A stretch of 64,000 bases of DNA from a virus (taxonomy: Duplodnaviria > Caudoviricetes), in the IMG/VR virus record IMGVR_UViG_2617271113_000004, positions 64,001-128,000 of that record, one strand, 5' to 3'. Positions 3,001 through 59,376 of the stretch are shown here, in pieces (positions within the stretch are counted from its first letter, which is position 1; every line of letters starts with the position of its first letter). Under the pieces are notes generated by a model. That model searched no databases and was not told the origin of the DNA. It saw only the letters and a program-made list of their open reading frames with translations. Both the position numbers and the translations under genes were made by a program.

Positions 3001-6000
3001 TTCTATACCATTTATCTTGCTCAGCATTTAATAATCCTGTTGTTTGATAAACATTCATATTAATTTCTGCTGTTTCCCTGCCTTCCATAACCCCTAGGCT
3101 AAATAAGTCTTGAAAATCTTGAACCCCTTGAGGTAAACCAGTTTCACCAAAATGCATAATTCCTAATGCATGATCTTGATATTCTCTATTGCTCAAAGAT
3201 GCGGATATATTTGACCAGAAACCTTTCGAATCTGTAAGTAACTCATCTACAATTTCAGTAGGTTCTTTTTTAGAACTCAAAAATCCACTTGTATCATCTT
3301 CAGGATCTATATCCATCATTGCATTTAATTTATTCGTTAATTCGATTCCGTCATCTTGAGCAATCATTGTCATAGTTGCACCGTTATTTTGAAGACTTGT
3401 AATGGTTCCGTTCATGATTGTAGGTAAATTTGCAGCGTTTGAACCATACCCCATGCGCATATGAACTCTTACACCAGTTCTTAAATAAATACTTTTATAA
3501 TAATTTGGATCTCTGTGTCTACTGCGTTCCGTTTCCTTAGCAACTGCCCCAGGCATCATAGCTGCCAAGAATAAGTCTCCAAAGCTAGAGTGTGTAATGT
3601 CTTGCGCTTTCTCGTGATCGTCTAATGATCCAAACACGTTGCTTAATTCACACACTAAGGTGCTAGAAGCTTGTTTTCTACTGTTATTGTAGGTAATATC
3701 AGTAACCGCTCTATAATGAAAATACTGATCTGACATTTTAGCAGTACCTATAAACTGACCTTCATCTATAAATGTCATGAAAAATGTTGGGAAAGCACGT
3801 ACTAATCTACCCCTTCGATCATGCTTTAACATATCCGTCATCATACTTGCTTCAGATATTTTACTTCCGTTATCCGCATAGGATTCCTCATCAGATCTAG
3901 ATAACTGATCAATAACTGTTTTATCATAATCATCTACGATTACAGCTTTATAATCTTTAATAGGTAATTTATCATACTTTGATTGAATAGTTTCGTAATC
4001 CCATGATTCCGTGTTATCCAAAGTGTTTATCATGTTATTAATTTGATTTACTAGACGCTTATTTGGAGCTTTATTATTTTTTAACAAAGCAGTTAGTTCC
4101 CGTTTAAAGTCTAGGTAAAGTAACACCGTACAAATAAACTGTACTTTCTCTGCGTCTTCAGCTGATGAAGGAGACAAATCAAATAGATCGTATACACGGT
4201 CAATGTTGTATTCCCCATCGTTCATAATCGCCTCTGATGATCCCCAGTAGTAAGAGAAATAACGCATCCCTAAATCTACGTTGTACTCTATACTGTTGCG
4301 TATGTGTTTCTTTTGATCTGACTCCCCATATTTACCCCTAACTCTCATTACTCCTATATACTTAGGGTTGGATTGATATTTATAATTCAGGTTTTCATCT
4401 TGCATAATAACCTGTCCTTTACTTCCTACTTTGACACCATCTAGTTCTTGATTTAAACCGGCATTATAAAAATGTCTCATATTTGGATCAAACGATTGAA
4501 CAAATGCTGTAGGATACTTTCCCTTTATGCCATACACAGAAGCAGACTTTCTGATCAACGCTTCCATGTTATCCTTGGTTAAATTATCGTTATCAACTTC
4601 TTTAGAAATATCTGCACTTGGTGATATATTAGGCATCTTTTCTTCAGAAAGACTCTTTGTTTCATCCCTCTTTTGAGTAGCAACTTCGTCTAAGGAATAA
4701 CCACTATCATCTAAAGTAGCAGTTCCTCCAGTAGCATCGTATAAATCAATCTGACCTGCGCCTTCTAAAACAGATCTATTTAATATCTGTGCAAAGTCTC
4801 TTTCGGTATCATAGTTTATAAAGAAGTCAGGGTCTACAAAGAGTCCATCATTTGTGTTAATTACACTAAATCCAGCTTGCTGCACTTCATCATATGTGGG
4901 TAATTCTAAATCTGGATATAATTCCGCTGCTTTGAAAGTTTCAAGAACCCATGCATTATAAATTGCTTGATCATTAGCATCATTACTCACCCCTACTGCA
5001 TTTTTAATCTTCTTAAAACCACTAGTAATATTTTTGATAAATGGTGGAATGCCATTCACTAAATCAATATCCCAGTTTAAATCTAATGTCATTGCATTTA
5101 TTTCATGCATTTTCTTTTCTGCTCGATTGTATGCCATTAATGTAAGATTAACATCATATACACCAGGCATCCCATCAACAGTATCTACAGTCATATCATC
5201 AATAACTACATTTGTGACTCCATATAACTTTGCTATTTGATGATTGAATTGCAGAAACCCATTAGCAACTTCTTTATGATATTCACGAGTTAGATACGAT
5301 GTCCGACGAACTAAGTTCTCTAAACTAGCTATAGCTTCCATATCTGTGCACTGGAAGCGTGCAACCATTACAGTATCTTGTGAACCTAAGTATTGATGAG
5401 TTGGGGACTGATGCATCTGTAATTGATTTGATGTAATCGAATTTTCGAAACTAATGCTGAAGTCTTCCAGATGCATGTTACCTAAAGACCATGATTCATA
5501 ATGTAAATCATACTCATACATTGCTTTGCTATATAAATCATCATACGCCTCATTGAACTCTTCTTCCTTAGCATTATCACCAAATTTGACTCCGCCATCT
5601 TTACTTACTTTTACTTTCAGCCAATCATCAAAACTTAAGTCATTCTTATCGCTAGTCCATTCTTTTATAAGTTCTTTCTTTTGTTTATTCCACTCTCGAA
5701 TTGCCTGAAGATCGTCTTCTGCTGCAATTTTAAATATATAATCATTTGTTAATTCATCTGTTAACGGTTCAAAATAAGTTAAAACACGTTCTGCATCTGC
5801 ACCTTCACCTTTAGTCATTGATTTATATAAGGCAGACGCAACAGGGTCTTTAACTGTTGTTTTATTTAAATGCCTTTCATAATACCACCTGAACATTGGC
5901 CAATGAAACATTTCATCAAAACTTCTTTCACTCGTTCCATATATATAAGTAGCAGGTTCAAAAGCATAACATTGTATAATAGCTTGTAATGTATTAGGAA

Positions 6001-6376
6001 AACCTGGTGTTGTTTGAACAGTTACATTTTGAATTGTTATAGCTTCTATTTGATGAGCTTCGTTTAAATACGTGTTCTCAATTGGCAAGAATGGACACTT
6101 CTTACTTTGAGCTAAAATCGGTCTCAATTCAAAATTGATGGAATCTTCATTGGGAAAGAAAAGAGTTAGTGTAATTATTCGATCAAAGTATCCAGACTCC
6201 TTAGGAAGGCTATTTCTACCTCTCATCACAGATACTTTCTGATGTTTCATTTGTCTGTGTACGCTTATACTGGTTGGAGGTGTTAAAAACTGCGTATCTC
6301 CAATTCGCATAAAATGATCACCGAGATGCCCATAACGGACGTCCCGATCATCAAATGCGGTTATTGCCATAAACAT
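77..6376 (-). CDS. Giant baseplate hub/tail-associated lysin with C-terminal lysozyme-like (CwlT-type) and peptidase M15 domains
   Basis: Lysozyme-like motifs MQETGG..DVFQASES..QGVKYF..ALQSYNFG..YGDKKYVEHIMRYY; Zn-peptidase motifs TSAYR..HGTGYGVDID..HHNHLH; hub-like segment GVRVHMRMGYG; position after the tail genes. Confidence 0.75.
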   Translation of the reverse strand: MFMAITAFDDRDVRYGHLGDHFMRIGDTQFLTPPTSISVHRQMKHQKVSVMRGRNSLPKESGYFDRIITLTLFFPNEDSINFELRPILAQSKKCPFLPIENTYLNEAHQIEAITIQNVTVQTTPGFPNTLQAIIQCYAFEPATYIYGTSERSFDEMFHWPMFRWYYERHLNKTTVKDPVASALYKSMTKGEGADAERVLTYFEPLTDELTNDYIFKIAAEDDLQAIREWNKQKKELIKEWTSDKNDLSFDDWLKVKVSKDGGVKFGDNAKEEEFNEAYDDLYSKAMYEYDLHYESWSLGNMHLEDFSISFENSITSNQLQMHQSPTHQYLGSQDTVMVARFQCTDMEAIASLENLVRRTSYLTREYHKEVANGFLQFNHQIAKLYGVTNVVIDDMTVDTVDGMPGVYDVNLTLMAYNRAEKKMHEINAMTLDLNWDIDLVNGIPPFIKNITSGFKKIKNAVGVSNDANDQAIYNAWVLETFKAAELYPDLELPTYDEVQQAGFSVINTNDGLFVDPDFFINYDTERDFAQILNRSVLEGAGQIDLYDATGGTATLDDSGYSLDEVATQKRDETKSLSEEKMPNISPSADISKEVDNDNLTKDNMEALIRKSASVYGIKGKYPTAFVQSFDPNMRHFYNAGLNQELDGVKVGSKGQVIMQDENLNYKYQSNPKYIGVMRVRGKYGESDQKKHIRNSIEYNVDLGMRYFSYYWGSSEAIMNDGEYNIDRVYDLFDLSPSSAEDAEKVQFICTVLLYLDFKRELTALLKNNKAPNKRLVNQINNMINTLDNTESWDYETIQSKYDKLPIKDYKAVIVDDYDKTVIDQLSRSDEESYADNGSKISEASMMTDMLKHDRRGRLVRAFPTFFMTFIDEGQFIGTAKMSDQYFHYRAVTDITYNNSRKQASSTLVCELSNVFGSLDDHEKAQDITHSSFGDLFLAAMMPGAVAKETERSRHRDPNYYKSIYLRTGVRVHMRMGYGSNAANLPTIMNGTITSLQNNGATMTMIAQDDGIELTNKLNAMMDIDPEDDTSGFLSSKKEPTEIVDELLTDSKGFWSNISASLSNREYQDHALGIMHFGETGLPQGVQDFQDLFSLGVMEGRETAEINMNVYQTTGLLNAEQDKWYRKIQDGLGMGDSDEVNININLFDKTVWDVLNITAAVGQDMITAVHPFGLRNTIFLGKPYFPISHDYDIDLEGESIKGTLKKSFKQMHIYDSYTSIIHNQIKATEENMYTVAVGTYMNEGKISTTSPVYVDTDIWPEKQKTVNIDTTLNAKGVWAIDKIPFIGDALNKPAKWFFDEGVALKITAAGLRDYVKDMYDGYLTVMGDPTVKPYDTMIIQDYYSNMSGPADVKESIHIMNHDVGFISMIKPDAVCFNADKSIFDLLMRATTIGAYAMARMHIRAILASRGYTGSLPILNALWSSTAKRAGKMQQKVRSFKGVSKAEDYYKKNAGKATETVKKSVSNLPKADIQADLKRWKANGLFNSLTKSLDGLNEKDIEKVFNKGGNLFSQSKLLRDFDSRKMANIKGKASSAMLKGAKGTSGLLKGGKQLAGVAKGLWKGKHALLGPAGIITFAIETAAVGVISSTVGELTERFLMNRQAVLIVPLKKEGVNFTAGINGNKGSVVGEPKEANKVFDGIPDFLLGLIGVEDRTVNGELPGQIQSFATSPTTSEKTFTTDELIKSIFDRPNTYEDNGKIEEYYKRDVEAAKEEISGRAEFLENRRAENNRPDYSHLEQKLKEADSILSNLFDLFTRDNSDSEQWDGSSSIPLNGKAVNLSSHFKTLGPKIEAEAKKQGKPEYAEILKAKCMQETGGNYNRYPDVFQASESLGLPRNSIGLERSLQQGVKYFGQMMNKANGDVALALQSYNFGGGFIDYVNNNGGKWTQELTNKFSDKKAAELGWNRYGDKKYVEHIMRYYEYPKGGTDDAPDVTGSKGKDKYHLSSSQARSKLVESKNQTGRSFNITIVGGTSLMRKGTYDLLNAVAKDYKSKTGEKIVVTSAYRANDPNWHGTGYGVDIDTPNTMRRLSGGKLGFPSGKDKTNAIKLVESCVKAGFDGIIFGDWFIIQQMKKKYPKIQFIYEPGNHHNHLHLSFPKKA

Positions 6377-6382
6377 AACCTC

Positions 6383-9300
6383 CTATATACTTTCTTCTAC
6401 TTTATCTCGGTACCAAATTCTATTAAGTTGGTTTGTATTATCTGAGTAATTTATAGATATACGAGACTGCGATGGGCTCATATTAGAGTTTGTAATACCT
6501 TCATTTACAAGATGGGAAAGCTGATCTTGAGTAACAGAATTTCCTTTTGCTTGAATTTGTATGTCAGCATTTTGCGTCCCTTGAAAGGCATTACTTTCCA
6601 TATTTAATGCTGGCTGTGGTTGATTTATTTCATAATGGCCATCAGTTTCAGTCGGATCATTTATCGGTTCACTGTGTCTAAGAATATTGTATCCTCCTAG
6701 TGCTCCAAGTGCAAGACCTGATCCAATAACTCCCCACCTTAATTTCTTATTTTCACTCATTGCTTCAAAGAATTCTTGAACTTTCCTCCCAATACTTTCA
6801 GATACATTCCCAGTTAGATCGTTAGCATATTCTCCTGTTGCACCCGCTAAAGTCGTAGAACGTGGTTCTCTTCTTTTTGCTTCCATTGATTCGTAAGGAT
6901 TTACTCTTGAATGGACATTCCCTTCCAAATCTATATATTCTTTTGAAGCATCTACGCCTAACATCTGATGGATCATATTTAAATACGTATTCCCCATTGT
7001 ACGCTGCTCATTTGGTGCAGAACCATTAATAATATCTGTAATGTTTTTCAGGCCTATTTCTGGATCTAAACCACTACTAGTTCCAAATTTATATGATTTA
7101 TTATACAATCCATTCTCCATATTGCCTTTAACTTTATCTATTGCAGAGAATGCTTTTTCCATCATTTCTGTATCAAAATCGTCAGCAAAATATCTTTGCT
7201 GGATTTCCCTTGTCTTGGACCAATTGCCTCGATAAATAGAATTAACCAATTCGATGGCAGGTGCCCTTCCTTCTTCTACAGTTAAACCGTGTTTAGATGA
7301 TATCGGTTTTTGCTCTAAATCTTGACCAAAATCCAAGACAGCTCGTTGTTCTGATGATCCATGATCAAGATATTCAAAGGCCATTTGTCGTAAAGTAAGA
7401 TTTAAATTAGAAGCCTGACCAATTACTCGTTTACCGATCTTCGATGCAAGTTCTTCCTGAGTATTAGGTTGAAAAGGAGCAAAGCGATCTTGCCCTTTCA
7501 ATATATAATTAGGATCATAACTCCTAGCTGATCTAGAATCTTTATTTATCTGCTTTTCATAAGCTTTTTGTCTTCTTGCTTCTTGCTCATTGTATCTGGA
7601 TTCCCATTCTTTTTGAACCTCTTTGTCCTTCATAACTACAATATTATCATAGTCACCATCTGAATCAGCTTTCATTAAATCAGACATCCATGAAGTTGTT
7701 CGGAATTCTCCTGATTTAACATCATCACTCATTCTTAATTTTGCTATCTGCATGGCATTGCTGTGGAATGTTGGATAACGTGTGTTCATTACGAATAAGT
7801 CACCATCAATCTCCCCGGAAGCACGTTTAGCCAGATCCTCATAAACACCCATTGCTTTTGCATCGTCGGGAGATATAAATGTAAACTCCCCATCTAAATC
7901 CATCGAAACTTTAGGATCCATCAATTTAAAAAGTCCATTTCCAGAAGTATTCATCCCAGCACGTAATACTTCTTTTCCTGTTTGTCCTTTAGAAGAAGTA
8001 ACATCTTTTGTAGCTTGTCTAAAATAATCATCTACCGATGCTTGAAGGCTATCCATAGCTGTGTTTCTTGCTTCTATACTTCCAGCCCGCTGTACATCGT
8101 CTGCTCGCTTATAAATATCCCCAATCTTCTTCTGTAAATCACGTAAGAAGACTTTTCCATTCGTTTCTTCTCTATTTGTAAAAGGTATAAATATATTATC
8201 AATAGCTACTCGTTCACTTGTATTTCCATTCAAATTCAAGGCTACTTTTCTACTATTCCCATTTGGAGCTTCTACACTTGGCAACTTCAACCAATACCCA
8301 TGTGCATTATCTCCACCTGTTAATGCATGTATATAATCTTTGTCAAACACCGTTTTCTTGTAGGTGTTCATATCAGCATCAATACTAGGTAAAGAACGAA
8401 AGTTTTCAACTTCTAACTCGGGTGCATTGTTAAGTAATTGGTTCTGATTGTCCACCGCCCCAGTTATTGAAGCAATGATATTTTTAGTTTCTTGTAGTCT
8501 AGTTTTATTTGAAGCTTGTGACATCATCGTTTCATACACTTTATTATACGTATTATCTAATTTAAGGTCTTTTAGTACTCCCATTTCACGATGACCCCAA
8601 TTTACTCCACCATGTTCGAAACCAATGTCTGTTCTAGCATATCTTTTTATCACATTGCCATTTTTATCATGCTCTAACCGTAATACTTTTCGGCCCTGCT
8701 CATCTGTCATCGTACTATAATTACTTACTTTACTTGCACGTGCTTCTAATATTGCTGTGTCAAATTCCAATTCCGTTTTATCATTAATTCCTAATGAGTT
8801 GAAGATTCGATTGAAACGTTGAGCAGGTATCGGTTTATTTCCTTCTTGGATAAACATTTGGGTTTCATCGTCCCATTTTAAGTTAACTTTGGAAGCCATT
8901 CGAATAGTTCTATCAAATTGTTTTTGTAGTTCCATTCTTTCCAATGCTCGACTGCTTGCCTTATCATTAGGGTGTGTTTCTGTATTGGCTTTAATAAGCT
9001 CGCTACTTATTTCTTGAGCGTGGTTAGCTAATAACTTAGCTTTACCAGATAGATACATACCAAAGTCTCTGTGTTTTTGTATATTAGCATTTAAAACCAT
9101 ACTTACAGAATCATCTCCAGTAATGGCTGACATCAAGTCCCTGCTAATTGAAACATCAGTTGCTTTTTCACCCTCTACGATATATTTAAATACATCCTCT
9201 TCCCAAGACACACCGATCCTTCCATTCTGCTGTATGACAGTAGCATCGTGTTTACCGTTGTACGTTATGGGTCTTTCATTTCCTTCTACTATTTCAGTTC

Positions 9301-12300
9301 CTAATGTCTGACCAGGTTTAACAGTTGCGCCTGGCTGCATATTTCGAAACAAGTTCACATTATCCGTTTCAGATAAGACTTTTTGTTCAGTAGCTCTCAT
9401 TTTAGACTGAATATCACTAGCTACAAGCCCTTGCTGTTCGTATATCGTTGGGATATTTGTGTGATTCCAAGACCCATCTTCATTGATAACACCTTCTCTT
9501 TTTAATAGATCAGGATTTGTTTCCTTTATAGATTCAAGGCGTTCAAGCAGTTGCTGATCATTCATAAAAGCTGTTTTCAGATTCACTCCCATATGATTTC
9601 CACCAGCTTGTTTTCTCCACTCATTACTCCATTCTCGCTGTGCTTCTGTAGTTACAAGGTCATCAAAACGAAGAAAAGCATTTGTATCCCTTGTAGCTTC
9701 TTGTATATCACTTGCGACTTTTGGAGATATGAGATGTGCATTCATAAATTGAACGGAATTATCTCTTCCCTGGAATGTGAAATGCCCATAAGGAAGATAA
9801 TCTCTAACATCTAATTTATTAAAGCTGCCTAATGCTACATTATCAGCTTTGTTTGTTCCTGCGTATAAATCTAAATTCTTCTGACTCAGCCATTCACCTG
9901 ATGCCAGCAACATTTCATAAGATTTCCGAGGCTTAATATTATCAAAAGTTACGTTTTTCTTTAAATAACCATTTTCAAATGCGTTGGAGAATATGTCTTC
10001 CTGTCTTAGCTTTCCTGTTTGATACCAGTCCTGAATCATAGCATTTTCTATATCTACATTCCCTTGTTTGAAGAAATCAGATTGATTATTGTTATAATTG
10101 AAAGTATCATTATTAGTCAAGTTCCTCTGTATACCAGAAAGTTGATTTACACTCTCATTCAGAACTCTTCTTGAACGAGTATTTGCAAGTTCAGCGTTTC
10201 CGTCTAGCATTGGATTCATAATATAGTTTATTTTATCAGTATAGTTATCTGCTAATACTTCAGCCGAAGATTTAATACCGATATTTCCATTATTGTACGT
10301 CGCAAAGCTTCGAGCATTCAATCGACGATTTCCTATCGTGTGTATCCCGTTTTGACCTATCAAAGGCATATTAATTGTCACAGCATTTGGATGATTCATT
10401 CCTTGCGAAAGATGATCAATGACACTTGTACTTTGACTTGGGTTATATATAGAAATTCTTGCGTTCTTTGTATGTTCATCCATTGAAACAGCAAAATGGT
10501 ATTTGTTATAAGCATCATTTTCAATTAAATTTGATACAACTTTTTCTAACGCATTTCGGTTATTTGGCTGTAGACCAGACAAATGTGTTTCATCTAACCT
10601 TGATAATGCCTTTTCTACTGTTGAACTAAAAGTAACCCGTGTACCAGGAGCATCATTTGGATTAAACCTAGTAGCATTTACCTCTTTTACAGTATTAACT
10701 GCTTCACGAAACATTAATTCATTTGTTTCATTATTCAATTGTTGAACAGCCGAGTTATAACCCAATGATGTTTGTTTAACCGATTGATCAAACTTAATAT
10801 TACTATGCTGAAGAATATCTGATATCTGTACAATAGCGTTATGAACCGTGGAACTTTCATTGTTTATGTCTGTAAGATTTCCAGCAATATTATTATTTAT
10901 TACCTTATTGTTATTTAAGTTCTTTATAAATCGGTTCATTCGCTCACGATATCGGTCTTCTTTCAAATCTTTATCTAAGTCTGATCCAGAGATGTCTCGT
11001 GAATAAACATAGTTTTTAATACTTTGCTCTACTGATTCAGTATTTGTCATATTTAAAGTGTGACTTGTATTAGAGAAATAGTCCGTAAAGGAAATCCTTT
11101 TTCTCTCAAAATCTTGAAGACTGATATCTTCTTGCTGCATTGGAAATGCTTCATTTACTTTATTCGAATATAATCTCCATGCCATATCACGTTGAGCTGG
11201 ATCTTTTAAATTCTCACCAATATATTTTAATGCAGTTTCATATACTGGTCTTTCTGATATTAGTCTCATTCCCATACGGAAGAATTCCTCTTGTTCGACT
11301 GGATTATGAACCCAACTCTTTGAGTTTGAATCCCAAAGACTATTAAATTTTCCTTCCATTTGATTCATTAACTCTTCATGAGTTATTCGGTTACGAATAA
11401 GTTCCTGATAATTAGAACCAGAAATGTGTTTATGTTTACCTAATAATCTCTTTTCAAGAATTTCTGCGTTACCATAAAGTCTCCTTGCCGCTTCGTAGCC
11501 ACCTGTTTTTCCGGAACCAGCCTTTTCCAAACTAAACATGCGCTCATATCTTCTTCTAGCACTATCTGTTAGCTTAGCATCATTAATTTCCCTTCTTTGG
11601 TTACTCGTTAAACCATCCCAGTTATAAAAACGATTTTGGACAAAGCCGGCCAGCTCATCAAATGCTTCATTTCCCTCACGCACAATAAAGCTGTGCATAT
11701 CTTTTTCTTTATTATATAGTCTTAGACCATATCTCTTCATTTCATTATCAGATAGGTCCATAAGACCTTCTACTTCATAAAAGCTTTTTGCATTAATAAT
11801 GGTTGTATTAAATGAGTCATTTATTGGATTATAAGATCCTGTTTCAGGGTCAAATTTAGCAGAAAATGATAGATCCCCATCTCTTTTAGCTCTAACTCCT
11901 CCAACAGCAAATAATGTTTGCCCTGTTTCCAATGACTGATTTGACCAGCTGAAACCAGGTTCATGATAATTAAATCCCGCTTGAATATTTGTTTTCGATG
12001 CATTTATTTTATTCTTGATTGTACCAATACTATGATTAATTACTCCTCCTAATCCTTCTGTTCCAATATCATGGGAAGCACTATGAGCAGATTCTAGATC
12101 AAATCCTAAGGTGCTTCTAAACTCTTGAAGTTTTGTCATACCAGTTTTTAGTGGATTACTAGAAAAATCACGACCTAATGATTTATGAAGATCAATAGGA
12201 TTGCTATAAGCAGTTTGAACAACTTGATAATAGTCAAGGTGTTTTTTGGGTTGATTAACAGGGCTATTCCCTTTTATTTGACCCCAGGACTGTAAGACAG

Positions 12301-13162
12301 GTAAATCAAAAGAATCTCCATTGTAAGATACAAAATAATTATCTTTATTCGCATTTATAAAATCATTATAAGAAGATATAGCTTGATTAGCTTTTATACC
12401 GTATTTCTCACTTATATTAATTAGTCCTGATTCTGCATGTCTAAGTACAGATTGCATATTATCGATAACCCTAGAATTAATCATTTTCTCATCTTGAAAC
12501 AGCTTATTTGCTAGTGTGTTATGAGAGAAATCAATAAGGTCATTATTCTCCAATTTAAAATTTGCGGGACTTATTCCTTTTTCTGATAATGTTGAGTATC
12601 TTGTTATATCAACCAGTGTTCGTTTTTCTGAATCAGAAAGAAGATTAAATTGATAAGGGTCGATTTTTAATCTATCCATTAACGTTACAATATTATTTTG
12701 AACATCAACAGATGGAGCAATTACTTGTGTTAGACTTTTATTAGAAGGAACAAACGTATTACCACTTCTTCTAAACCCTTGAATCGCAATTTCAGAAACA
12801 CTAAAATTTTTTCTATTCATTGCATCCCCAAGTGTCTCAATATCATAAGTAAAGTATTCATTGGCTTTCGCTAATTCATTAAATTTTTGGACTTGAAGCT
12901 GCCCTGTTTTATTATAAGGTGTACTAAAGTGGCGAGATATAGATTGTCCATTTGGCCCAGCTATATCTTGATCAAATTGACTTTTATGGGAGTTATTAAC
13001 CAATGATGCCATTTTAGTAACATTAGTAGCATAGTTGTCATTATACTGGTAACTCCTTTTATTAACAGGGTTAAATTGAGCCACAAGGTTATAATTGCCT
13101 TGTGGCGGAGACATATATTGTATCCCTGCATCTTCCATTTTTTTAATCAGATCTTCATTCAC
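6383..13162 (-). CDS. Putative virion-packaged single-chain two-barrel RNA polymerase with an N-terminal DEDDh 3'-5' exonuclease domain
   Basis: NTRYPT...MKADSDGDYD (RxP and DxDGD), IGQASN, ISSKHG; N-terminal YDIET / YNGDSFD / AHSASHD; lies in the structural operon. Confidence 0.75.
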   Translation of the reverse strand: MNEDLIKKMEDAGIQYMSPPQGNYNLVAQFNPVNKRSYQYNDNYATNVTKMASLVNNSHKSQFDQDIAGPNGQSISRHFSTPYNKTGQLQVQKFNELAKANEYFTYDIETLGDAMNRKNFSVSEIAIQGFRRSGNTFVPSNKSLTQVIAPSVDVQNNIVTLMDRLKIDPYQFNLLSDSEKRTLVDITRYSTLSEKGISPANFKLENNDLIDFSHNTLANKLFQDEKMINSRVIDNMQSVLRHAESGLINISEKYGIKANQAISSYNDFINANKDNYFVSYNGDSFDLPVLQSWGQIKGNSPVNQPKKHLDYYQVVQTAYSNPIDLHKSLGRDFSSNPLKTGMTKLQEFRSTLGFDLESAHSASHDIGTEGLGGVINHSIGTIKNKINASKTNIQAGFNYHEPGFSWSNQSLETGQTLFAVGGVRAKRDGDLSFSAKFDPETGSYNPINDSFNTTIINAKSFYEVEGLMDLSDNEMKRYGLRLYNKEKDMHSFIVREGNEAFDELAGFVQNRFYNWDGLTSNQRREINDAKLTDSARRRYERMFSLEKAGSGKTGGYEAARRLYGNAEILEKRLLGKHKHISGSNYQELIRNRITHEELMNQMEGKFNSLWDSNSKSWVHNPVEQEEFFRMGMRLISERPVYETALKYIGENLKDPAQRDMAWRLYSNKVNEAFPMQQEDISLQDFERKRISFTDYFSNTSHTLNMTNTESVEQSIKNYVYSRDISGSDLDKDLKEDRYRERMNRFIKNLNNNKVINNNIAGNLTDINNESSTVHNAIVQISDILQHSNIKFDQSVKQTSLGYNSAVQQLNNETNELMFREAVNTVKEVNATRFNPNDAPGTRVTFSSTVEKALSRLDETHLSGLQPNNRNALEKVVSNLIENDAYNKYHFAVSMDEHTKNARISIYNPSQSTSVIDHLSQGMNHPNAVTINMPLIGQNGIHTIGNRRLNARSFATYNNGNIGIKSSAEVLADNYTDKINYIMNPMLDGNAELANTRSRRVLNESVNQLSGIQRNLTNNDTFNYNNNQSDFFKQGNVDIENAMIQDWYQTGKLRQEDIFSNAFENGYLKKNVTFDNIKPRKSYEMLLASGEWLSQKNLDLYAGTNKADNVALGSFNKLDVRDYLPYGHFTFQGRDNSVQFMNAHLISPKVASDIQEATRDTNAFLRFDDLVTTEAQREWSNEWRKQAGGNHMGVNLKTAFMNDQQLLERLESIKETNPDLLKREGVINEDGSWNHTNIPTIYEQQGLVASDIQSKMRATEQKVLSETDNVNLFRNMQPGATVKPGQTLGTEIVEGNERPITYNGKHDATVIQQNGRIGVSWEEDVFKYIVEGEKATDVSISRDLMSAITGDDSVSMVLNANIQKHRDFGMYLSGKAKLLANHAQEISSELIKANTETHPNDKASSRALERMELQKQFDRTIRMASKVNLKWDDETQMFIQEGNKPIPAQRFNRIFNSLGINDKTELEFDTAILEARASKVSNYSTMTDEQGRKVLRLEHDKNGNVIKRYARTDIGFEHGGVNWGHREMGVLKDLKLDNTYNKVYETMMSQASNKTRLQETKNIIASITGAVDNQNQLLNNAPELEVENFRSLPSIDADMNTYKKTVFDKDYIHALTGGDNAHGYWLKLPSVEAPNGNSRKVALNLNGNTSERVAIDNIFIPFTNREETNGKVFLRDLQKKIGDIYKRADDVQRAGSIEARNTAMDSLQASVDDYFRQATKDVTSSKGQTGKEVLRAGMNTSGNGLFKLMDPKVSMDLDGEFTFISPDDAKAMGVYEDLAKRASGEIDGDLFVMNTRYPTFHSNAMQIAKLRMSDDVKSGEFRTTSWMSDLMKADSDGDYDNIVVMKDKEVQKEWESRYNEQEARRQKAYEKQINKDSRSARSYDPNYILKGQDRFAPFQPNTQEELASKIGKRVIGQASNLNLTLRQMAFEYLDHGSSEQRAVLDFGQDLEQKPISSKHGLTVEEGRAPAIELVNSIYRGNWSKTREIQQRYFADDFDTEMMEKAFSAIDKVKGNMENGLYNKSYKFGTSSGLDPEIGLKNITDIINGSAPNEQRTMGNTYLNMIHQMLGVDASKEYIDLEGNVHSRVNPYESMEAKRREPRSTTLAGATGEYANDLTGNVSESIGRKVQEFFEAMSENKKLRWGVIGSGLALGALGGYNILRHSEPINDPTETDGHYEINQPQPALNMESNAFQGTQNADIQIQAKGNSVTQDQLSHLVNEGITNSNMSPSQSRISINYSDNTNQLNRIWYRDKVEESI

Positions 13163-13177
13163 TAGTCTTCACTTCCT

Positions 13178-16100
13178 CTACAAATAAGCGTCCATGTTAT
13201 AACGAAATTCATCTTCAATTTCCTTTGATCGGTCTTGTTGATAATTAATTCGTGTATGTGTTTCATTACCATTACTTGGCTTTACAATAACTTGTACATT
13301 ATGAAGGCCTTGCCCTTGTAACACATCTCTTAAATTCTTTTCAACACTTTGATAACCAAGAAACTCGGGTTCATTGTAATCATTTGGAAGATCTGGAGTT
13401 AACGCTGCAGCTTCAATATCATCATTCCAATAATTGAAATCTGTTAAATCAATTCCCTCTTCCATTACAGTTTTTACCTTAATATCATCTAAACTATACT
13501 CCGGAGACCAACCTTCCCAATCTGCGTCTGGTATTGCATATTTATTAGCATAGTAAGAAAGAGGTTTCTTCTCTTCTGCTTCCATTCCCCATATTGTTTT
13601 ATAAATTCTTCTTTGGTTTTCAGGAACCAGTTCTAATATCTTTTTCCTATCCGCTGCATTTGCATCAACAAATTCATTAAAGAACCATTTATCTTTATAA
13701 GGAAGTGACTGCATTACCTTCATTCGGTCTTCGTGAGGATCAATTCCATAAAGCGTTGTATCTCGTTGTTCTTTATAATATAACGCTTGAGCAACAGGTG
13801 TAGGTAGTTGAATTTCATCCCATTGTTCTTCTATCTTCTTTAACTCAATATTTATCTTTTTCTTTTTTTCTTCCCAATTCCTAGGTTGCTCGATATACAG
13901 CTGCTTCTTTTGTTCTTCTAGTTCTCGTCTAGCTTCCTTTGTACGTTGTTCTTTTTCTTCAACATTTCTCAAAAATTCATCAGCGTCATAACCCAAATGA
14001 TCTAGCTCTTCTTTTGCCTTTTCATATAGACCTGCATATTTCATGTATTTCAAGATATCGAAATACTCATTTATGTCCTGTTCAGTTCTTCTTCTTTCTG
14101 GTATCCATCGCTCATCATTTCTATATTGATATAACTTTGCAAAGGCATTAGCGGTTAAACCAGTTATACCACCAATAATAGCTCCGGCCTTTGTTCTATT
14201 TCCCCCACCTAGAAAAATACGACCTACTACTCCACCAAACATCGCTCCACTTAAACCTGCAAGCAGTGGGTTGTCTTTACCAGCCATCTTATGAATTGCA
14301 GGTATCCCATAATCAGTAATACCAAAGTTTTCCCATGTAGACCAATCTTGACCATAAATCTGATCTCTTTCATATTCTTCTAATGCTGTTCTAACTTGTA
14401 AGAATTTCGTATTAAGCGCAGAATCAAAATGAGCAATACTTTCCCACCTTGAACCTTTTGCTATTTCTTCCGGGGAAAATCTAGCCCATACTCCAGGTGA
14501 TGAAAAATCAGATTCTAATTCTTTCATTTGTCCAGCATCAATGATTTGTTTATTTAGACTGTTAATGCCTTGAAAGACTACTGCTCGCATTGTTCCATAC
14601 GTATCACTAGAAATTCGCTTATTTTCATCTGCGTCAATACCAATAGTTATTCTATCACCTACATCAATGTACTCCTCAAGCACTCCTTCTGCATTAGCTC
14701 TAGAGTCCACACCTGCTAAACGAATTGGTTGATCCCCGTATTCTTCTGTTAAAAATGTGTAGTCATCTAAAAAGCGTGTAACTGTCACTTTCTCTTTTTC
14801 AAGCTCAGCGTCTTTATAGAGATATTCTTGAAACTCATATTTTTGTTTTCTTCTAGATACTTGTCTTTTTATTTGGGCTGCTTGCTTTCTCAACTGATCA
14901 TCTTCAACGTACTCTGTTACGTAGTCTTTCCAAAATTTATATTCATCTGACCAAGGAGCAACATCAGCAAGAATCTTAAACTTATCAAAAGCACCATAAG
15001 TTCCTGTTTCATCTGGATGCAATCGATTTAGTTTTTCATATGCTTCTCCTGGTAATCTATACTCTCCATGCGGTATAAGACTATATGGATCACCTGTTTG
15101 AAAGTTAATAAAATAGTTCCCACCTGGCAACCAATCAGGCATTGTATTTGGAATAGGATTATACTTATCTAATTGACCACTATCTCTACGAATAAATCGC
15201 CTACCAATTTCTGATAAGCTACCACCTAGCGAACCAAGTTCTGATTCCCAAAAAGCATCAGAAGCATTATAAGCCTCGTCTGATTTGGCAACTACTGTTT
15301 TTCCTACATATGGATCTCTCCCTAATATTTCATCCATGAAGATCCAGTTATAAACACCATGTGGCTCTAACCAGTTACTAGCAAGCTCTTGTCCCCTCCA
15401 TTCAAAGCTTCTAGGGTCTTGTAGTTCATTAATTTTATTTTTATCTACTTGTTGTTGATATTCATATGAAGGAGCAAACATGCCTCTAGGTTCTGTCTCA
15501 ACGCTTCTTTGATCATTTTGTTCTGCAGCAATAAATGCACTATTTAAATCTACATATTTATCATTTAACCGTCGAGGTAGATAAATTGTTTTGCCTGTTG
15601 TAGGATCACCAATGATCATATCTCCTGTAGGATCACTGTCTTCATCATATCGCCTTCTTGCAATGTAATAAGATGAACGTGCGCCATAATCTTCTGGTGA
15701 AGCATCAACATTATATTCAATTCGACCTGAAGGGGATATCCGTGTTGTAACAGGTTCAACTGGTCTTTCTCCTAATAAATCGAATTCCTCTTGTACTACT
15801 TCAGGATCTCCCCAATATTCTTTGTGCATTTCTCTTGTTGGTTTAATTAATTGTCCTATTGTCATATTTCCGATATCACCTAGAAAAGGTGTATTACTAT
15901 TAAATAAATCACCTGTTAACATATATGGTCGATCATAATAATGCTTTTTCTCCCACCAGTAAGGATCTCTTGTACCTATGAGAAATGATAATGCACCTAA
16001 TGGATTTTCAAATGTAGGAAACAGGGAATGTGCGTATTTTTCTTCCGCACTTGAAGTTACTTCAGAATACTCCCAATCGCTATGCGCTTTACGATAACTA

Positions 16101-58800: not shown

Positions 58801-59376
58801 CCTGATCATATACGTGATCTCCAATTTGAAGAAATTGAAGTGAAGTTAAACAACTATATTGGAGACATCGCAGATATGGCTCGTGATAAGATTGCAGAGC
58901 TTATGAGTATGTATCCAGCTAAAGATATTGGATATGTATCTTACTATGTAACATATGTAGATCGTAAGAAAGAAGCATCTCTCTCTTTCCCATGGACTGT
59001 AGCACGTGAAGCATTTATTCAGACACTTTCTTATGTGGAGAATAAAGAGAAGCAAGATCAACTTACTGCGAATGAAGTTGTAGACAATAATATTACACTT
59101 GCTGTATGTATTCCTGATGCGATTCAAGAGCAGTTTACAATGGAGAAAGTATTAGAAGGATTGCATAAGCAACCATCATTCATTCAAGCTGTAGGTGATA
59201 AGTATAGACTAATCATTGGTCAAACTGAAGTAGGCTTTGTATTTAATTCAGCTAAGAATATTAAGTCACTTCTAGGTCATGATAAGTATGAACTTAATAT
59301 CAGTACGTCTACACCTGGCCGTGGAACACGTACAGTTAACCTAGAAGTGAATGAACTAATCAAGATAGGAGCCTAA
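55870..59376 (+). CDS. YonO-like single-subunit DNA-dependent RNA polymerase (cellular RdRP-related)
   Basis: RTPSQAR, DGAIF, WQIRITPFVKG, GRNP, MGGADVDGD, KIGIATN, EIDAAKHG. Confidence 0.88.
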   Translation: MITMKNQTATVSNQSNQTKGDVIKMENRTMLKENGYLYTVQDILAALSKSEGFKSRDSKNFARVLRAMSEGKALLDILANPSLAGVPNNQVRYFTEFVENNKLAKRVYKPTRKGVLVPIADINLMEMQEDKVYSTIDYSEVNVDSYKEISESFLSETLASTPEMIEFTRNGKLIKQRMMLPMRHVFFVSLGLELPEEEADYDQEDFDNIHLRERVMKDGFYFTDENGEEGHAYFFLRTPSQARVLQAVFIDTAFMSPVQALKLLGHELIAYGSQDNEGNYVVKVDKMITRPGLAGTNTVASKTVDIGNIVEINHKGEQRLVGGVHTLRVVEDRQVEIKTGTYRAWDKEKQCFKEFDANEHPISLTAADGAIFCDEEIYHTLGAEFGQFNDAWQIRITPFVKGLMVFVPNLRAYYDDHIIAFKSAVKGDFANLITANPDFKPQLRIAMFNRNLNQEKTYTDMPYQFVQASSLNTSDLWKVMKPHLEKVGNALHDPSIMKKYVGLDKVIDADLFDQETEHYMIDQSRVSTFTSFLDMFDWTYEDVHMKRYALDVLKEKIADWKTGNVPVEGHYRYLMQDPYAVLEAGTKYTVRNENGDLMITNRGSYHIQPNEAFVPSAHEHKSNVYVAAGRNPMIAKGEWQVVRHRPIDMYNRAYKKGAFRNITLMSVHDMRLFAMGGADVDGDTALTVTDETIVQALKRKETSPVMDISFVEKDGNIEFLGDGVPYSKEMTGVYRMPEHLVDKQNNYKITFTKEQNTDELYEEVHKLGVDYVIRTLKPNKIGIATNIASILADAVRGLGYDLYLNNVSQDQVMTTIKQYENWIDILRLVQGWEIDAAKHGGAYQEVMKETLDFMDNPPESLSYLHKGLGRRVWNKPNWLAARVGKKGHDLGSVLSRLMDLVQQFEDNMLTNELERMHLEADSFSLLAKLNSAFQLDPAYFNELANHVKQLKASYGSAVRKTHQAAQDKKQVIIESNTPDHIRDLQFEEIEVKLNNYIGDIADMARDKIAELMSMYPAKDIGYVSYYVTYVDRKKEASLSFPWTVAREAFIQTLSYVENKEKQDQLTANEVVDNNITLAVCIPDAIQEQFTMEKVLEGLHKQPSFIQAVGDKYRLIIGQTEVGFVFNSAKNIKSLLGHDKYELNISTSTPGRGTRTVNLEVNELIKIGA

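What the first reader, a model, noticed from the sequence alone, without database searches (positions are those of the whole stretch)
6383..13162. Candidate virion RNA polymerase fused to a DEDDh exonuclease inside the tail operon
Seen: the C-terminal half has RYP then ADSDGD (nt ~7652-7666), IGQASN and SSKHG, in the same order as RNP/DVDGD/IGIATN/AAKHG in the YonO-like RNAP of this window. It also has beta/beta'-like segments (WGHREMG, KGQTGKEVL). The N-terminus has all three DEDDh motifs (YDIET, YNGDSFD, HSASHD). Known: DxDGD is the catalytic Mg-binding motif of two-barrel RNAPs, and crAss-like phages package a ~2200-aa single-chain RNAP. Inference: this is an ejected RNAP with a built-in 3'-5' nuclease (proofreading, RNA 3' trimming or template processing), an architecture I do not recognise as characterised.
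Basis: partly seen in the sequence, partly recalled or inferred. Interest (0 to 1): 0.92.

Follow-up and report, generated by a model that had tools for sequence, protein, structure and literature searches.

The report
Exonuclease-fused RNA polymerase in tail operon
A 2,259-residue protein encoded among the tail genes of a large Bacillus-type phage is predicted to combine a DnaQ-type exonuclease with a complete single-chain copy of the cellular RNA polymerase core, so the phage probably carries its own transcription enzyme into the cell, a strategy known from a few other phages but not annotated for this family.

Summary
In 33 aligned family members the DEDDh residues (D107, E109, D286, H360, D365) and R1795/P1797/D1833/D1835/D1837 are invariant. 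The acidic and Lys residues stay invariant in 20 more diverse members.

AlphaFold2 models (pLDDT 85 and 77) match these folds:
- aa 98-391: Pol III epsilon, Z 14.3
- aa 859-1552: RNAP beta, Z up to 13.5
- aa 1569-2067: beta', Z 9.7, Foldseek E about 1e-6

So this is a beta-beta' fused two-barrel RNAP with an N-terminal exonuclease. It sits between a gp145-like giant protein and the baseplate hub, in the slot that 0305phi8-36 workers called tape measure.

The closest precedent is Thermus phage P23-45 gp96, a tape-measure-fused virion RNAP (PMC10770324). Packaging, ejection and the nuclease's role were not tested. A YonO-like second RNAP co-occurs in 5 of 8 carriers examined.

I found no paper describing this family as an RNAP. 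The scan reached the same reading earlier on two other genomes (e1-5753837, e1-5753845).

Verdict: new variant of a known kind, interest 0.72.

The parts
6383..13162 (-). Whole gene, 2,259 aa (P0001): exonuclease, unassigned middle, beta-like, beta'-like, hydrophobic segment, C-terminal module
   Evidence: 34 full-length relatives of 2,226-2,633 aa
11990..12871 (-). DEDDh (DnaQ-like) 3'-5' exonuclease domain, aa 98-391. Exo I D107/E109 (nt 12836-12844), Exo II N281-D286 (nt 12305-12322), Exo III H360-D365 (nt 12068-12085)
   Evidence: VIA Z 14.3 to Pol III epsilon 1j53_A, 167 of 174 residues at 2.5 A. Motif residues invariant in 33 of 33 and 20 of 20. Pfam RNase_H_2 in 13 of 20 members, best E 2.2e-6
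10589..11989 (-). aa 392-858: confidently modelled mixed alpha/beta region with no assigned fold
   Evidence: pLDDT mostly 80-95. Fold-search rows barely test it. ESM Atlas gave no usable hit
9791..10588 (-). aa 859-1124: like the N-terminal part of RNAP beta
   Evidence: VIA Z 9.1 to Xanthomonas beta 6j9e_C residues 26-697 (206 aligned) and Z 9.1 to plastid beta 8qma_A
8507..9775 (-). aa 1130-1552: like the C-terminal half of RNAP beta, with the first double-psi barrel. Invariant E1242, K1326, K1333 (nt 9164-9187) and E1526 in WGHREMG
   Evidence: VIA Z 13.5 (phiKZ nvRNAP 7ogp_C, 281 aligned, 5.2 A), 13.2 (AR9 7s00_C), 13.1 (bacterial beta 6j9e_C 697-1342, 323 aligned). Invariance
6962..8458 (-). 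aa 1569-2067: RNAP beta'-like module with the second double-psi barrel (aa 1737-1870). R1795-x-P1797 (nt 7772-7780) and D1833-x-D-G-D1837 (nt 7652-7666)
   Evidence: Foldseek: at least 500 PDB matches at E<=0.001, and all 50 rows shown are bacterial RNAP chains, best E 1.2e-6, prob 1.00. VIA Z 9.7 to Pol I A190 (404 aligned) and 8.2 to M. tuberculosis beta' (401 aligned). Isolated DPBB domains match model 608-741, e.g. 7dww_A Z 6.4, 84 of 86 residues at 2.4 A. hhalign puts NTRYPTFH on E. coli beta' NRAPTLH and KADSDGD on NADFDGD, but only at E 0.021, prob 2.3%
6386..6790 (-). aa 2125-2259: Gly-rich hydrophobic segment (aa 2143-2161, nt 6680-6736) plus a conserved C-terminal tail. Candidate membrane or assembly module
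   Evidence: Kyte-Doolittle 19-aa mean 1.22. A comparable segment occurs in the last 200 aa of 31 of 33 members. An HMM of this module hits the C-termini of WH1 gp095 (E 6e-14) and KLEB27-3 gp034 (E 4.9e-9) but not 0305phi8-36 gp146 (E 8.1). Low pLDDT in the model
13178..18997 (-). Upstream giant gene (1,939 aa), homolog of 0305phi8-36 virion protein gp145, with hydrophobic segments. Same operon
   Evidence: BLASTP E 7e-111. gp145 is marked as a virion protein by mass spectrometry in the record. Hydrophobic segments
77..6376 (-). Downstream giant gene (2,099 aa): baseplate hub with a lysozyme-like domain, homolog of 0305phi8-36 gp147
   Evidence: Pfam Lysozyme_like E 8.5e-32. phrog_20474 score 1303. 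tblastn to gp147
55870..59376 (+). Second, YonO/QDE-1-like single-chain RNAP (1,168-aa frame; 1,165 aa in the protein collection) at the start of the plus-strand arm. Candidate non-virion partner
   Evidence: Pfam RdRP PF05183 E 1.7e-8. Genome search E 1.2e-10. R627, P629, D676, D678, D680 invariant in 23 relatives

Best explanation
The gene encodes a giant tail-module protein of a 0305phi8-36-like phage of Bacillales. The record is a 191-kb provirus. Its C-terminal 1,200 residues are a single-chain fusion of RNA polymerase beta and beta' with a complete two-barrel active site. Its N-terminus is an intact DEDDh 3'-5' exonuclease. It ends in a hydrophobic segment and a conserved tail.

Most likely mechanism (inferred):
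1. The protein is assembled into the tail with its two giant neighbours, through the C-terminal module.
2. It leaves the virion at infection and stays at the entry site.
3. It transcribes the first phage genes from the incoming DNA before any phage protein is made. The gene for the YonO-like second RNAP is a candidate target. This is the scheme shown for Thermus phage P23-45 gp96 and gp64.
4. The exonuclease works on a 3' end in the same reaction. It either removes misincorporated or backtracked RNA 3' ends, a job done in cells by the RNAP site with Gre/TFIIS, or it trims the entering DNA end to expose a template.

Shown here: the frame, the motifs and their invariance, the predicted folds, the gene order, and the co-occurrence with a second RNAP. 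Inferred: packaging, ejection, template, timing and the nuclease's substrate.
For: Folds:
- The C-half model has pLDDT 77.1 and pTM 0.72. The N-half model has pLDDT 85.4 and pTM 0.71.
- Beta-like: Z 13.5, 13.2 and 13.1, plus Z 9.1 for the beta N-terminal part.
- Beta'-like: Z 9.7 to 8.2 and Foldseek E 1.2e-6, prob 1.00.
- QDE-1 spans both barrels at Z 10.2 (360 aligned).
- Exonuclease: Z 14.3.

Active-site residues: the pattern matches the eight residues that Ruprich-Robert and Thuriaux call universal for two-barrel RNAPs (three Asp, one further Asp, R-x-P, two Lys; passages of PMC2919709). Here these are D1833/D1835/D1837, E1242, R1795/P1797 and K1326/K1333, invariant or nearly so. The DEDDh residues are invariant in 33 of 33 and 20 of 20 sequences.

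Context:
- The order gp145-like, this gene, hub recurs in KLEB27-3, WH1 and four plasmid records of 200-260 kb.
- Orthologs are labelled 'structural protein' (KLEB27-3) and 'virion structural protein' (WH1).
- Hardies 2007 treats the same-position gene of BtI1/BwK1 as the tape measure (passages of PMC2147016).

Second RNAP: a YonO-like gene was found in G000 and in 4 of 5 plasmid records that carry the family, but in neither of the two lytic phages. That is 5 of 8 carriers. Five further pairs of homologs share identical longest-contig lengths.

Precedent: P23-45 gp96, a tape-measure protein with a DFDGD two-barrel RNAP that transcribes pre-early genes, including the nvRNAP gene (abstract and sections 6, 12, 13 of PMC10770324).
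Against: - No proteomic or expression data for this family were seen. The 'structural' labels may be homology transfers.
- Both halves are predicted as compact globular folds, not a long helical ruler. How about 250 kDa would sit in or pass a tail tube is unexplained.
- The DxDGD loop itself has pLDDT below 50 (model 698-707).
- Sequence-level links to RNAPs are at noise level: no PDB sequence hit, Pfam RNA_pol_Rpb1_2 in only 2 of 20 members (best E 0.015), and hhalign to E. coli beta' at prob 2.3%.
- Similarity to gp96 is weak (Z 5.5), so any likeness in strategy is convergent.
- The two-RNAP cascade is not universal. KLEB27-3, WH1 and pG9842_140 gave no YonO-like match. 0305phi8-36 has the YonO-like gene, but its slot protein gp146 has no DxDxD.
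- The two domains can separate. P0046 (1,873 aa) aligns only from aa 526 of P0001, so it lacks the exonuclease part. The 1,777-aa pG9842_140 protein keeps the exonuclease region but did not align to aa ~1015-1585 and has no DxDGD.
- The two halves were modelled separately, so nothing shows that the nuclease site faces the polymerase site.
Confidence: 0.55

Rival explanations
1. The polymerase reading is right, but the exonuclease has nothing to do with the transcript. It is an injected nuclease that attacks host DNA or RNA 3' ends (shut-off or counter-defence), or it processes the phage genome end. It merely rides on the same delivered protein.
For: - The domains are separable in natural variants.
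- The structural neighbours include DNA and RNA exonucleases without preference: epsilon, 3'hExo, TREX1, RNase T, ExoI, Cap18, DinG-exo.
- About 470 residues of unassigned fold lie between the nuclease and the polymerase.
Against: The fusion is kept in 31 of 39 representatives found with the polymerase part. These have full lengths of 2,164-2,729 aa. Seven of the other eight are 115-623 aa, and I could not check whether they are cut by contig ends. Nothing tested here tells the substrates apart.
Confidence: 0.25
2. The protein is not packaged. It is a late-made intracellular RNAP that happens to be encoded in the tail operon, or a tail-assembly factor.
For: - No virion proteomics were seen for this family.
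- The fold is globular rather than tape-like.
- It is not the gene directly after the chaperone-like genes.
Against: - Its position between two virion-protein homologs is fixed in all loci examined.
- The conserved C-terminal hydrophobic module is shared with proteins labelled virion structural.
- An enzyme made only late cannot explain why a separate YonO-like RNAP is kept.
Confidence: 0.1
3. The two-barrel module makes DNA rather than RNA, or extends a DNA 3' end, and the epsilon-like exonuclease proofreads it. This would be the logic of archaeal PolD (two-barrel DP2 plus exonuclease DP1). The role might be to repair or complete the injected genome.
For: - The best structural match of the nuclease is the proofreading subunit of Pol III (Z 14.3).
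- PolD shows that a two-barrel core can be a proofread DNA polymerase (abstracts of PMC6355029 and PMC4996933 in the listing).
Against: - The 50 rows shown by the fold search hold RNAP beta, beta', RdRPs and isolated barrels, and no PolD DP2. This is absence from a list, not a test.
- Beta-lobe-like and beta'-like accessory regions typical of transcribing enzymes are present.
- Sugar selectivity cannot be read from these data.
Confidence: 0.07
4. The polymerase and nuclease folds are inactive relics in a purely structural tape-measure or hub-associated protein.
For: - A natural variant with the polymerase core deleted exists on pG9842_140.
- The positional counterpart in 0305phi8-36 has no DxDxD.
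Against: All metal-binding and basic residues of both sites are invariant down to 17% identity. That is not expected without catalytic selection.
Confidence: 0.03

Closest known systems
Thermus phage P23-45 gp96, tape-measure-fused virion two-barrel RNAP, with non-virion RNAP gp64 (Chaban et al. 2024, PMC10770324; abstract and sections 6, 12, 13 read)
   Same: - A giant tail-module protein carrying a two-barrel RNAP with DxDGD.
- Hydrophobic or membrane segments.
- A second, non-virion single-chain RNAP elsewhere in the genome.
   Different: - In gp96 the RNAP is at the N-terminus of a 5,002-aa protein with a long tape and a metallopeptidase. Here it is C-terminal in a 2,259-aa protein that is predicted globular throughout.
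- Fold similarity is weak: Z 5.5 for 8h2n_A, and 7.3 for P74 gp62.
- The paper describes gp96 as flat and lacking a clamp, and places it in the phage/plasmid/RdRP clade. The protein here looks more like multisubunit beta/beta'.
- The word 'exonuclease' does not occur in the paper's main text.
Multisubunit RNAPs of jumbo phages phiKZ and AR9 (7ogp, 7s00), and bacterial beta/beta'
   Same: - They are the best structural matches of the beta-like half (Z 13.5, 13.2, 13.1, tied).
- The beta'-like half matches cellular largest subunits (Z 8.2-9.7).
   Different: - Those enzymes consist of two to five polypeptides, and the jumbo-phage virion enzymes are packaged in the head (recalled). Here there is one chain in the tail module.
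- No sequence similarity is detectable by phmmer or Pfam at significant levels.
crAss-like phage phi14:2 gp66 virion RNAP (6vr4)
   Same: A single-chain two-barrel RNAP of about 2,200 aa inside a giant virion protein.
   Different: - Weak fold match (Z 6.5, 416 aligned).
- Podovirus cargo protein (recalled).
- No exonuclease.
YonO / QDE-1 family (Pfam PF05183), including 0305phi8-36 orf99 and the window's own 1,168-aa protein
   Same: - Single chain with two barrels.
- The same order of RxP, DxDGD, IGxAxN and KHG motifs.
- QDE-1 aligns over both barrels (Z 10.2).
   Different: - P0001 has no PF05183 hit.
- Profile-profile probability is 0.3%.
- P0001 has beta-lobe-like and beta'-like regions that fit multisubunit enzymes better.
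Corynebacterium glutamicum NCgl1702, a 2,169-aa beta::beta' fusion of a mobile element (passages of PMC2919709; PMC7824862)
   Same: A giant single polypeptide described as a beta::beta' fusion of presumed phage or mobile-element origin.
   Different: - It was not compared here, because no sequence was at hand.
- The passages read mention no exonuclease or tail context.
Polymerases with a separate proofreading exonuclease: archaeal PolD DP1-DP2 (abstracts) and coronavirus nsp14 ExoN with the RdRp (recalled)
   Same: A polymerase coupled to a 3'-5' exonuclease. PolD has a two-barrel core, and nsp14 is a DEDDh enzyme that proofreads RNA.
   Different: - PolD makes DNA and its nuclease is Mre11-like.
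- nsp14 serves a right-hand RdRp and is a separate protein.
- I know of no two-barrel RNAP with a fused DEDDh domain, and found none in the searches.

Membership tests
Two-barrel (double-psi beta-barrel) RNA polymerase superfamily | Two double-psi beta-barrel domains forming one active site | tested here: met
   This rests on predicted structure only. Model aa 1130-1552 aligns to the barrel-bearing half of beta (Z 13.5-13.1). Model aa 1737-1870 aligns to isolated DPBB domains (7dww_A Z 6.4, 84 of 86 residues, 2.4 A) and lies within beta' matches (Z 9.7). QDE-1 spans both barrels (Z 10.2).
Two-barrel (double-psi beta-barrel) RNA polymerase superfamily | DxDxD metal-binding triad in the beta'-type barrel, preceded by R-x-P | tested here: met
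   D1833, D1835, D1837 and P1797 are invariant in 33 of 33 and 20 of 20 sequences. R1795 is invariant in 33 of 33 and at 90% or more in A4. hhalign register to E. coli beta' NRAPTLH and NADFDGD is correct but weak (E 0.021, prob 2.3%). The loop has pLDDT below 50.
Two-barrel (double-psi beta-barrel) RNA polymerase superfamily | Two basic residues and one acidic residue supplied by the beta-type barrel | tested here: inconclusive
   K1326, K1333 (7 apart) and E1242 are invariant in both alignments and lie in the stretch aligned to beta.
Two-barrel (double-psi beta-barrel) RNA polymerase superfamily | Template-dependent RNA synthesis | not testable with these tools
   Needs an in vitro primer-extension or transcription assay.
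Multisubunit-type beta/beta' lineage (as opposed to the YonO/QDE-1/crAss/P23-45 clade) | Beta and beta' accessory regions beyond the barrels, and detectable sequence relation | tested here: inconclusive
   Fold: the beta N-terminal part matches at Z 9.1, the beta C-half at Z 13, and beta' over about 400 aligned residues. All are higher than for crAss gp66 (6.5) and gp96 (5.5). Sequence: Pfam RNA_pol_Rpb1_2 hits only 2 of 20 members, best E 0.015. hhalign to E. coli beta gave nothing relevant. A possible sandwich-barrel-hybrid insert rests on Z 5.3-5.8 only.
YonO / QDE-1 RdRP family (Pfam PF05183) | Match to the family profile | tested here: not met
   P0001 has no PF05183 hit at E<=0.1. hhalign of the family against 23 YonO-like relatives gives prob 0.3%, E 0.19.
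DEDDh (DnaQ-like) 3'-5' exonuclease | Exo I DxE, Exo II D, Exo III H-x4-D | tested here: met
   D107, E109, D286, H360 and D365 are invariant in 33 of 33 and 20 of 20 sequences.
DEDDh (DnaQ-like) 3'-5' exonuclease | RNase H-like exonuclease fold | tested here: met
   Z 14.3 to epsilon (167 of 174 residues, 2.5 A), 13.8 to 3'hExo, and more than 40 further exonuclease rows. In Pfam, P0001 is below the cut-off (RNase_H_2 17.8 vs 22 bits), but 13 of 20 members match, best E 2.2e-6.
Tail tape measure protein | Gene directly after the tail chaperone pair; long, mostly helical protein whose length sets tail length | tested here: not met
   A 1,939-aa gene lies between the chaperone-like genes and this one. 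Both halves are modelled as compact mixed alpha/beta domains with pLDDT 85 and 77. There is no BLASTP similarity to 0305phi8-36 gp146, and the C-terminal HMM is not significant on it (E 8.1). The relation to tail length is not testable here. A C-terminal hydrophobic segment, common in tape measures, is present in 31 of 33 members.
P23-45 gp96-type tail-associated virion RNAP system | Presence in virions, and transcription of pre-early genes including a second RNAP gene | not testable with these tools
   Only context is available. The gene is in the tail module, and a YonO-like second RNAP was found in 5 of 8 carriers examined. The fold match to gp96 is weak (Z 5.5).

The most novel reading that the evidence does not exclude
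This is the first transcription enzyme of the cellular (beta/beta') type that carries its own dedicated DEDDh exonuclease. Either it is a virion-delivered RNAP that proofreads or rescues backtracked transcripts with a separate nuclease site instead of the Gre/TFIIS route, or it is a two-barrel enzyme that synthesises or extends DNA with epsilon-like proofreading, a bacterial-virus parallel to archaeal PolD. In either case it is the founding member of a wider, unannotated set of tail-encoded single-chain RNAPs. That set is hinted at by structural matches in Acinetobacter phage ME3, Microcystis phage MaMV-DC and a gut siphovirus 'minor tail protein'.
Probability: 0.2. Interest if true: 0.9.

Novelty: new variant of a known kind. 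Interest (0 to 1): 0.72.

Why it matters
- It would give Bacillus and Paenibacillus phages and phage-plasmids of about 200 kb a host-independent start of transcription. This group was thought to have only a YonO-like RNAP or none. The 2021 jumbo-phage survey lists only the YonO-like enzyme for 0305phi8-36 (passages of PMC7824862).
- It would be a second, independent case of an RNA polymerase built into the tail-delivery machinery. That would strengthen the idea that transcription can be coupled to DNA entry.
- A compact (about 1,200 aa) single-chain beta-beta' enzyme is a useful minimal model for the cellular RNAP core.
- A covalently linked 3'-5' exonuclease raises a directly testable question: can a two-barrel RNAP use an external proofreading site?
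- Public records now name these proteins 'hypothetical', 'structural protein' or 'ribonuclease H-like domain-containing protein', so the annotation can be improved.

Tried and rejected
- Sequence searches that found no polymerase. phmmer of P0001 against PDB gave 0 hits at E<=10. A family profile against PDB gave only marginal PolB-exonuclease hits, best E 0.0014. PHROGs gave 0 families. phmmer of aa 1250-2150 against 1.84 billion representatives gave 39 hits, all the same family, with no known RNAP.
- hhalign of the family against the YonO-like family gave prob 0.3%. Against E. coli beta it gave a spurious alignment to the exonuclease motif. BLASTP of P0001 against the window's YonO-like protein gave a best E of 1.5.
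- Homology to 0305phi8-36 gp146 was rejected. BLASTP gave nothing below E 1, gp146 has no DxDxD, and the C-terminal HMM gave E 8.1. Only a visual resemblance of the last residues remains. This echoes Hardies' remark that only the last 60 residues aligned to the BtI1/BwK1 gene.
- The middle region aa 400-860 gave no usable hit in the ESM Atlas, and the fold-search rows barely cover it. I do not claim it has a new fold.
- Promoter hunt: an 11-mer count over 75 intergenic regions of the 191-kb record gave only one recurrent element, a 14-bp palindrome, and nothing specific to the plus-strand arm. I dropped this line.
- Papers. Searches for 0305phi8-36 with RNA polymerase, two-barrel with tape measure, virion RNA polymerase/exonuclease/two-barrel, DPBB/phage/DnaQ, tape measure/virion RNAP/Bacillus and ME3 found no description of this family as an RNAP. 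Searches for KLEB27-3 and vB_BceM_WH1 found no paper.
- Iyer and Aravind 2012 and the PMC copy of Drobysheva 2021 are not held. The bioRxiv version of Drobysheva was seen only in a listing.
Supplementary Data 3 and 4 of PMC10770324 (23 RNAP families; a survey of viral genomes with two RNAPs) could already list this family.

Full report
**What is there**

The window is bases 64001-128000 of a 191,052-bp IMG/VR provirus record, estimated 97% complete. My own rough ORF call shows two arms. The minus-strand arm runs to about genome position 118,286 and holds the virion genes. The plus-strand arm holds the rest.

The finding is one open frame, 6383-13162 on the minus strand, of 2,259 aa. It is the middle one of three giant genes:
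- Upstream, 13178-18997 encodes 1,939 aa. It is a clear homolog of 0305phi8-36 gp145 (E 7e-111). The record marks gp145 as a virion protein found by mass spectrometry.
- Downstream, 77-6376 encodes 2,099 aa. It is the lysozyme-bearing baseplate hub, the homolog of gp147.
- Further upstream are two small genes of unknown PHROG families in the place of the tail chaperones, then tube-like genes and the sheath.

**The observation**

ADSDGD is at nt 7652-7669. The window's 1,168-aa protein (55870-59376 +) has the four corresponding motifs in the same order.

**Relatives**

A word-seeded search with aa 1400-2050 found 34 proteins, all of 2,226-2,633 aa. Many sit on contigs of 200-229 kb from Bacillus, Priestia and Paenibacillus. 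They are named 'hypothetical', 'ribonuclease H-like domain-containing', or 'DNA polymerase III epsilon subunit-like'.

An exhaustive phmmer search of aa 1250-2150 against 1.84 billion representatives found only 39 proteins:
- 31 are 2,164-2,729 aa long.
- One is 1,873 aa.
- Seven are 115-623 aa.
- None is a known RNAP.

In public phage records only three distant orthologs appear, annotated 'structural protein', 'virion structural protein' or 'hypothetical':
- KLEB27-3 gp034
- WH1 gp095
- Edson

The KLEB27-3 and WH1 proteins both carry NRYPT...AD(Y/H)DGD. Edson was not inspected. In the plasmid collection ten records match, eight over at least 80% of the length. The order gp145-like, this gene, hub recurs in the loci I opened.

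**Conservation**

I aligned 33 sequences: P0001 plus 32 of the 34 hits. I left out P0003, which is the window's own protein, and P0020. In this alignment D107, I108, E109, N281, F285, D286, H360, D365, R1795, P1797, D1833, D1835, G1836 and D1837 are invariant.

I then aligned 20 more diverse sequences, down to 17% identity. The invariant set shrinks to 30 columns, which include:
- the five DEDDh residues
- E1242, K1326, K1333 and E1526
- P1797
- D1833, D1835 and D1837

It is the pattern of charged residues that Ruprich-Robert and Thuriaux describe as universal for two-barrel RNAPs (passages read).

**Predicted structure**

I modelled two overlapping halves with the family alignment as input.

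- N-half (aa 1-1130): mean pLDDT 85.4, pTM 0.71.
  - aa 98-391 align to DEDDh exonucleases. The best is the Pol III epsilon domain at Z 14.3, with 167 of 174 residues at 2.5 A. More than 40 other exonucleases follow.
  - aa 859-1124 align to the N-terminal part of bacterial and plastid beta at Z 9.1.
- C-half (aa 1130-2259): mean pLDDT 77.1, pTM 0.72.
  - Foldseek against the PDB gave at least 500 matches at E<=0.001. All 50 rows shown are bacterial RNAP chains. I take them to be beta' from their lengths and chain letters. The best E is 1.2e-6 with prob 1.00.
  - The Foldseek-independent aligner split the model in two. Model residues 1-423 match the C-terminal half of beta or Rpb2: phiKZ nvRNAP Z 13.5, AR9 13.2, Xanthomonas beta 13.1, Pol I 12.6.
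  - Model residues 440-938 match the largest subunits: Pol I A190 Z 9.7, Pol II Rpb1 9.6, archaeal A' 9.0, M. tuberculosis beta' 8.2.
  - Single-chain enzymes span both parts: RDR2 Z 10.6, QDE-1 10.2, P74 gp62 7.3, crAss gp66 6.5, P23-45 gp96 5.5.
  - Isolated double-psi barrels match model 608-741, the segment that holds RxP and DxDGD.

Caveats:
- The DxDGD loop itself has pLDDT below 50.
- The last ~180 residues are poorly modelled.
- I had no coordinates, so I could not measure residue-level equivalences.

**Sequence-level checks are weak but consistent**

- Pfam finds RNase_H_2 in 13 of 20 members and RNA_pol_Rpb1_2 in 2 of 20, with best E 0.015.
- hhalign of the family against E. coli beta' gives one local alignment (E 0.021, probability 2.3%). 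Its register puts TSSKG...SG on KGKQGRF...SGRS, NTRYPTFH on NRAPTLH and KADSDGD on NADFDGD.
- Against the YonO-like family the probability is 0.3%.

So the protein is not a member of the YonO/QDE-1 family. By fold it is nearer to the multisubunit enzymes.

**Is it a tape measure?**

The 0305phi8-36 authors assigned the tape-measure role to orf146, the gene in this position, mainly from tail length. They noted that the same-position gene of the BtI1 and BwK1 prophages aligned only over the last 60 residues. Those prophage genes are probably members of the present family, but I did not test that.

Here gp146 shows no similarity to P0001. P0001 is predicted globular, not tape-like. The C-terminal module (a hydrophobic Gly-rich segment plus a tail) is conserved in 31 of 33 members. 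It is shared with WH1 gp095 and KLEB27-3 gp034.

I therefore call it a tail-module protein in the tape-measure slot, not a demonstrated tape measure.

**A second RNAP**

The window's 1,168-aa protein matches Pfam RdRP, like 0305phi8-36 orf99. Hardies et al. proposed orf99 as a phage RNAP.

| Record | Carries the P0001 family | YonO-like gene |
|---|---|---|
| G000 | yes | found |
| Four of five plasmid records | yes | found |
| pG9842_140 | yes (deleted variant) | not found |
| KLEB27-3 | yes | not found |
| WH1 | yes | not found |
| 0305phi8-36 | no DxDxD in the slot protein gp146 | found |

That is 5 of 8 carriers. Five further pairs of homologs have identical longest-contig lengths. The pairing is therefore frequent but not obligatory.

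**Natural variants**

- P0046 (1,873 aa) aligns only from aa 526 of P0001, so it lacks the exonuclease part. It keeps RYPSFH...GDQDGD.
- The 1,777-aa protein of pG9842_140 keeps the exonuclease region. It did not align to aa ~1015-1585 and has no DxDGD.

**Mechanism**

The best-supported reading is a delivered transcription enzyme on the model of P23-45 gp96. In my reading:
- The polymerase module makes the first transcripts.
- The C-terminal module holds the protein in the tail and perhaps at the membrane.
- The nuclease acts on a 3' end.

Which 3' end is open. It could be the RNA end, for proofreading or rescue. It could be the DNA end, to expose a template. Or it could be a host target. All of this is inference.

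Unexplained or unsupported points:
- How a globular 250-kDa protein is housed and ejected.
- The lack of proteomic evidence.
- The imperfect pairing with the second RNAP.

**Novelty**

Tail-associated and virion two-barrel RNAPs are known (P23-45, crAss-like phages, phiKZ-like phages). Three things appear new:
- the family itself
- its multisubunit-like single-chain architecture in a myovirus tail module
- the fused DEDDh exonuclease

I found no paper that describes it. However, the supplements of PMC10770324 and two key papers could not be read.

BFVD matches suggest that similar unannotated proteins exist in other phages:
- an unnamed protein, E 7e-25
- a gut siphovirus 'minor tail protein', E 2e-16
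- Acinetobacter phage ME3, E 1e-10
- Microcystis phage MaMV-DC, E 2.5e-8

The scan's own earlier follow-ups on two other genomes (e1-5753837, e1-5753845) reached the same reading. I saw them only after forming mine, and they are not independent evidence.

**Verdict**

- Observation: confirmed.
The folds and active sites are supported. Delivery and the nuclease's role are untested.
- Novelty: new variant of a known kind.
- Interest: 0.72.

Noticed in passing
window coordinates about 53938 (genome 117938); other copies at genome 10395, 19030, 27243, 84265, 146640, 155004, 172118: A 14-bp palindrome, TGTAATGCATTACA, recurs in intergenic regions of both arms. Its 11-mers occur in 7 of the 75 intergenic regions, and about 20 times in the genome counting both strands. 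It could be an operator or a promoter element.
   Followed up: partly
window 13178-18997 (-): The 1,939-aa gp145 homolog directly follows the chaperone-like genes, which is the classical tape-measure position. It has hydrophobic segments at aa 28-53 and 1577-1598. It has no Pfam or PHROG family. Its role relative to the RNAP protein is open.
   Followed up: partly
L011 (NC_011774.1, B. cereus G9842 pG9842_140) 8713-14046: This is a 1,777-aa variant of the family. It keeps the exonuclease region and the C-terminus. It did not align to aa ~1015-1585 of P0001 and has no DxDGD. The 140-kb record also lacks a gp145-like giant gene upstream, and no YonO-like match was found in it. It is possibly a decaying element.
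   Followed up: partly
protein P0046 (1,873 aa): This family member aligns only from aa 526 of P0001, so it seems to lack the exonuclease domain while keeping the RxP and DxDGD motifs.
   Followed up: partly
BFVD entries A0A8S5SD80_1, A0A172Q021_2, A0A172Q0S6, A0A075BUT7_2: Predicted structures of a gut siphovirus 'minor tail protein', two Acinetobacter phage ME3 proteins and a Microcystis phage MaMV-DC protein match the RNAP half (E 2e-16 to 2.6e-5). These scores are better than those of the annotated giant-virus RNAP subunits. They may be further unannotated single-chain phage RNAPs.
   Followed up: no
window 55870-59376 (+): The YonO-like RNAP has about 330 residues after the conserved KHGG motif, with a faint Pfam GDPD (glycerophosphodiester phosphodiesterase) hit at aa 949-1047 (E 0.092, below the cut-off). 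This is probably noise, but I did not examine it.
   Followed up: no
L002 (0305phi8-36) 7648-15261, gp146: The positional counterpart in 0305phi8-36 (2,537 aa, virion protein by mass spectrometry, annotated as hypothetical tape measure) has no DxDxD and no detectable similarity to this family. The slot therefore holds unrelated giant proteins in related phages.
   Followed up: yes
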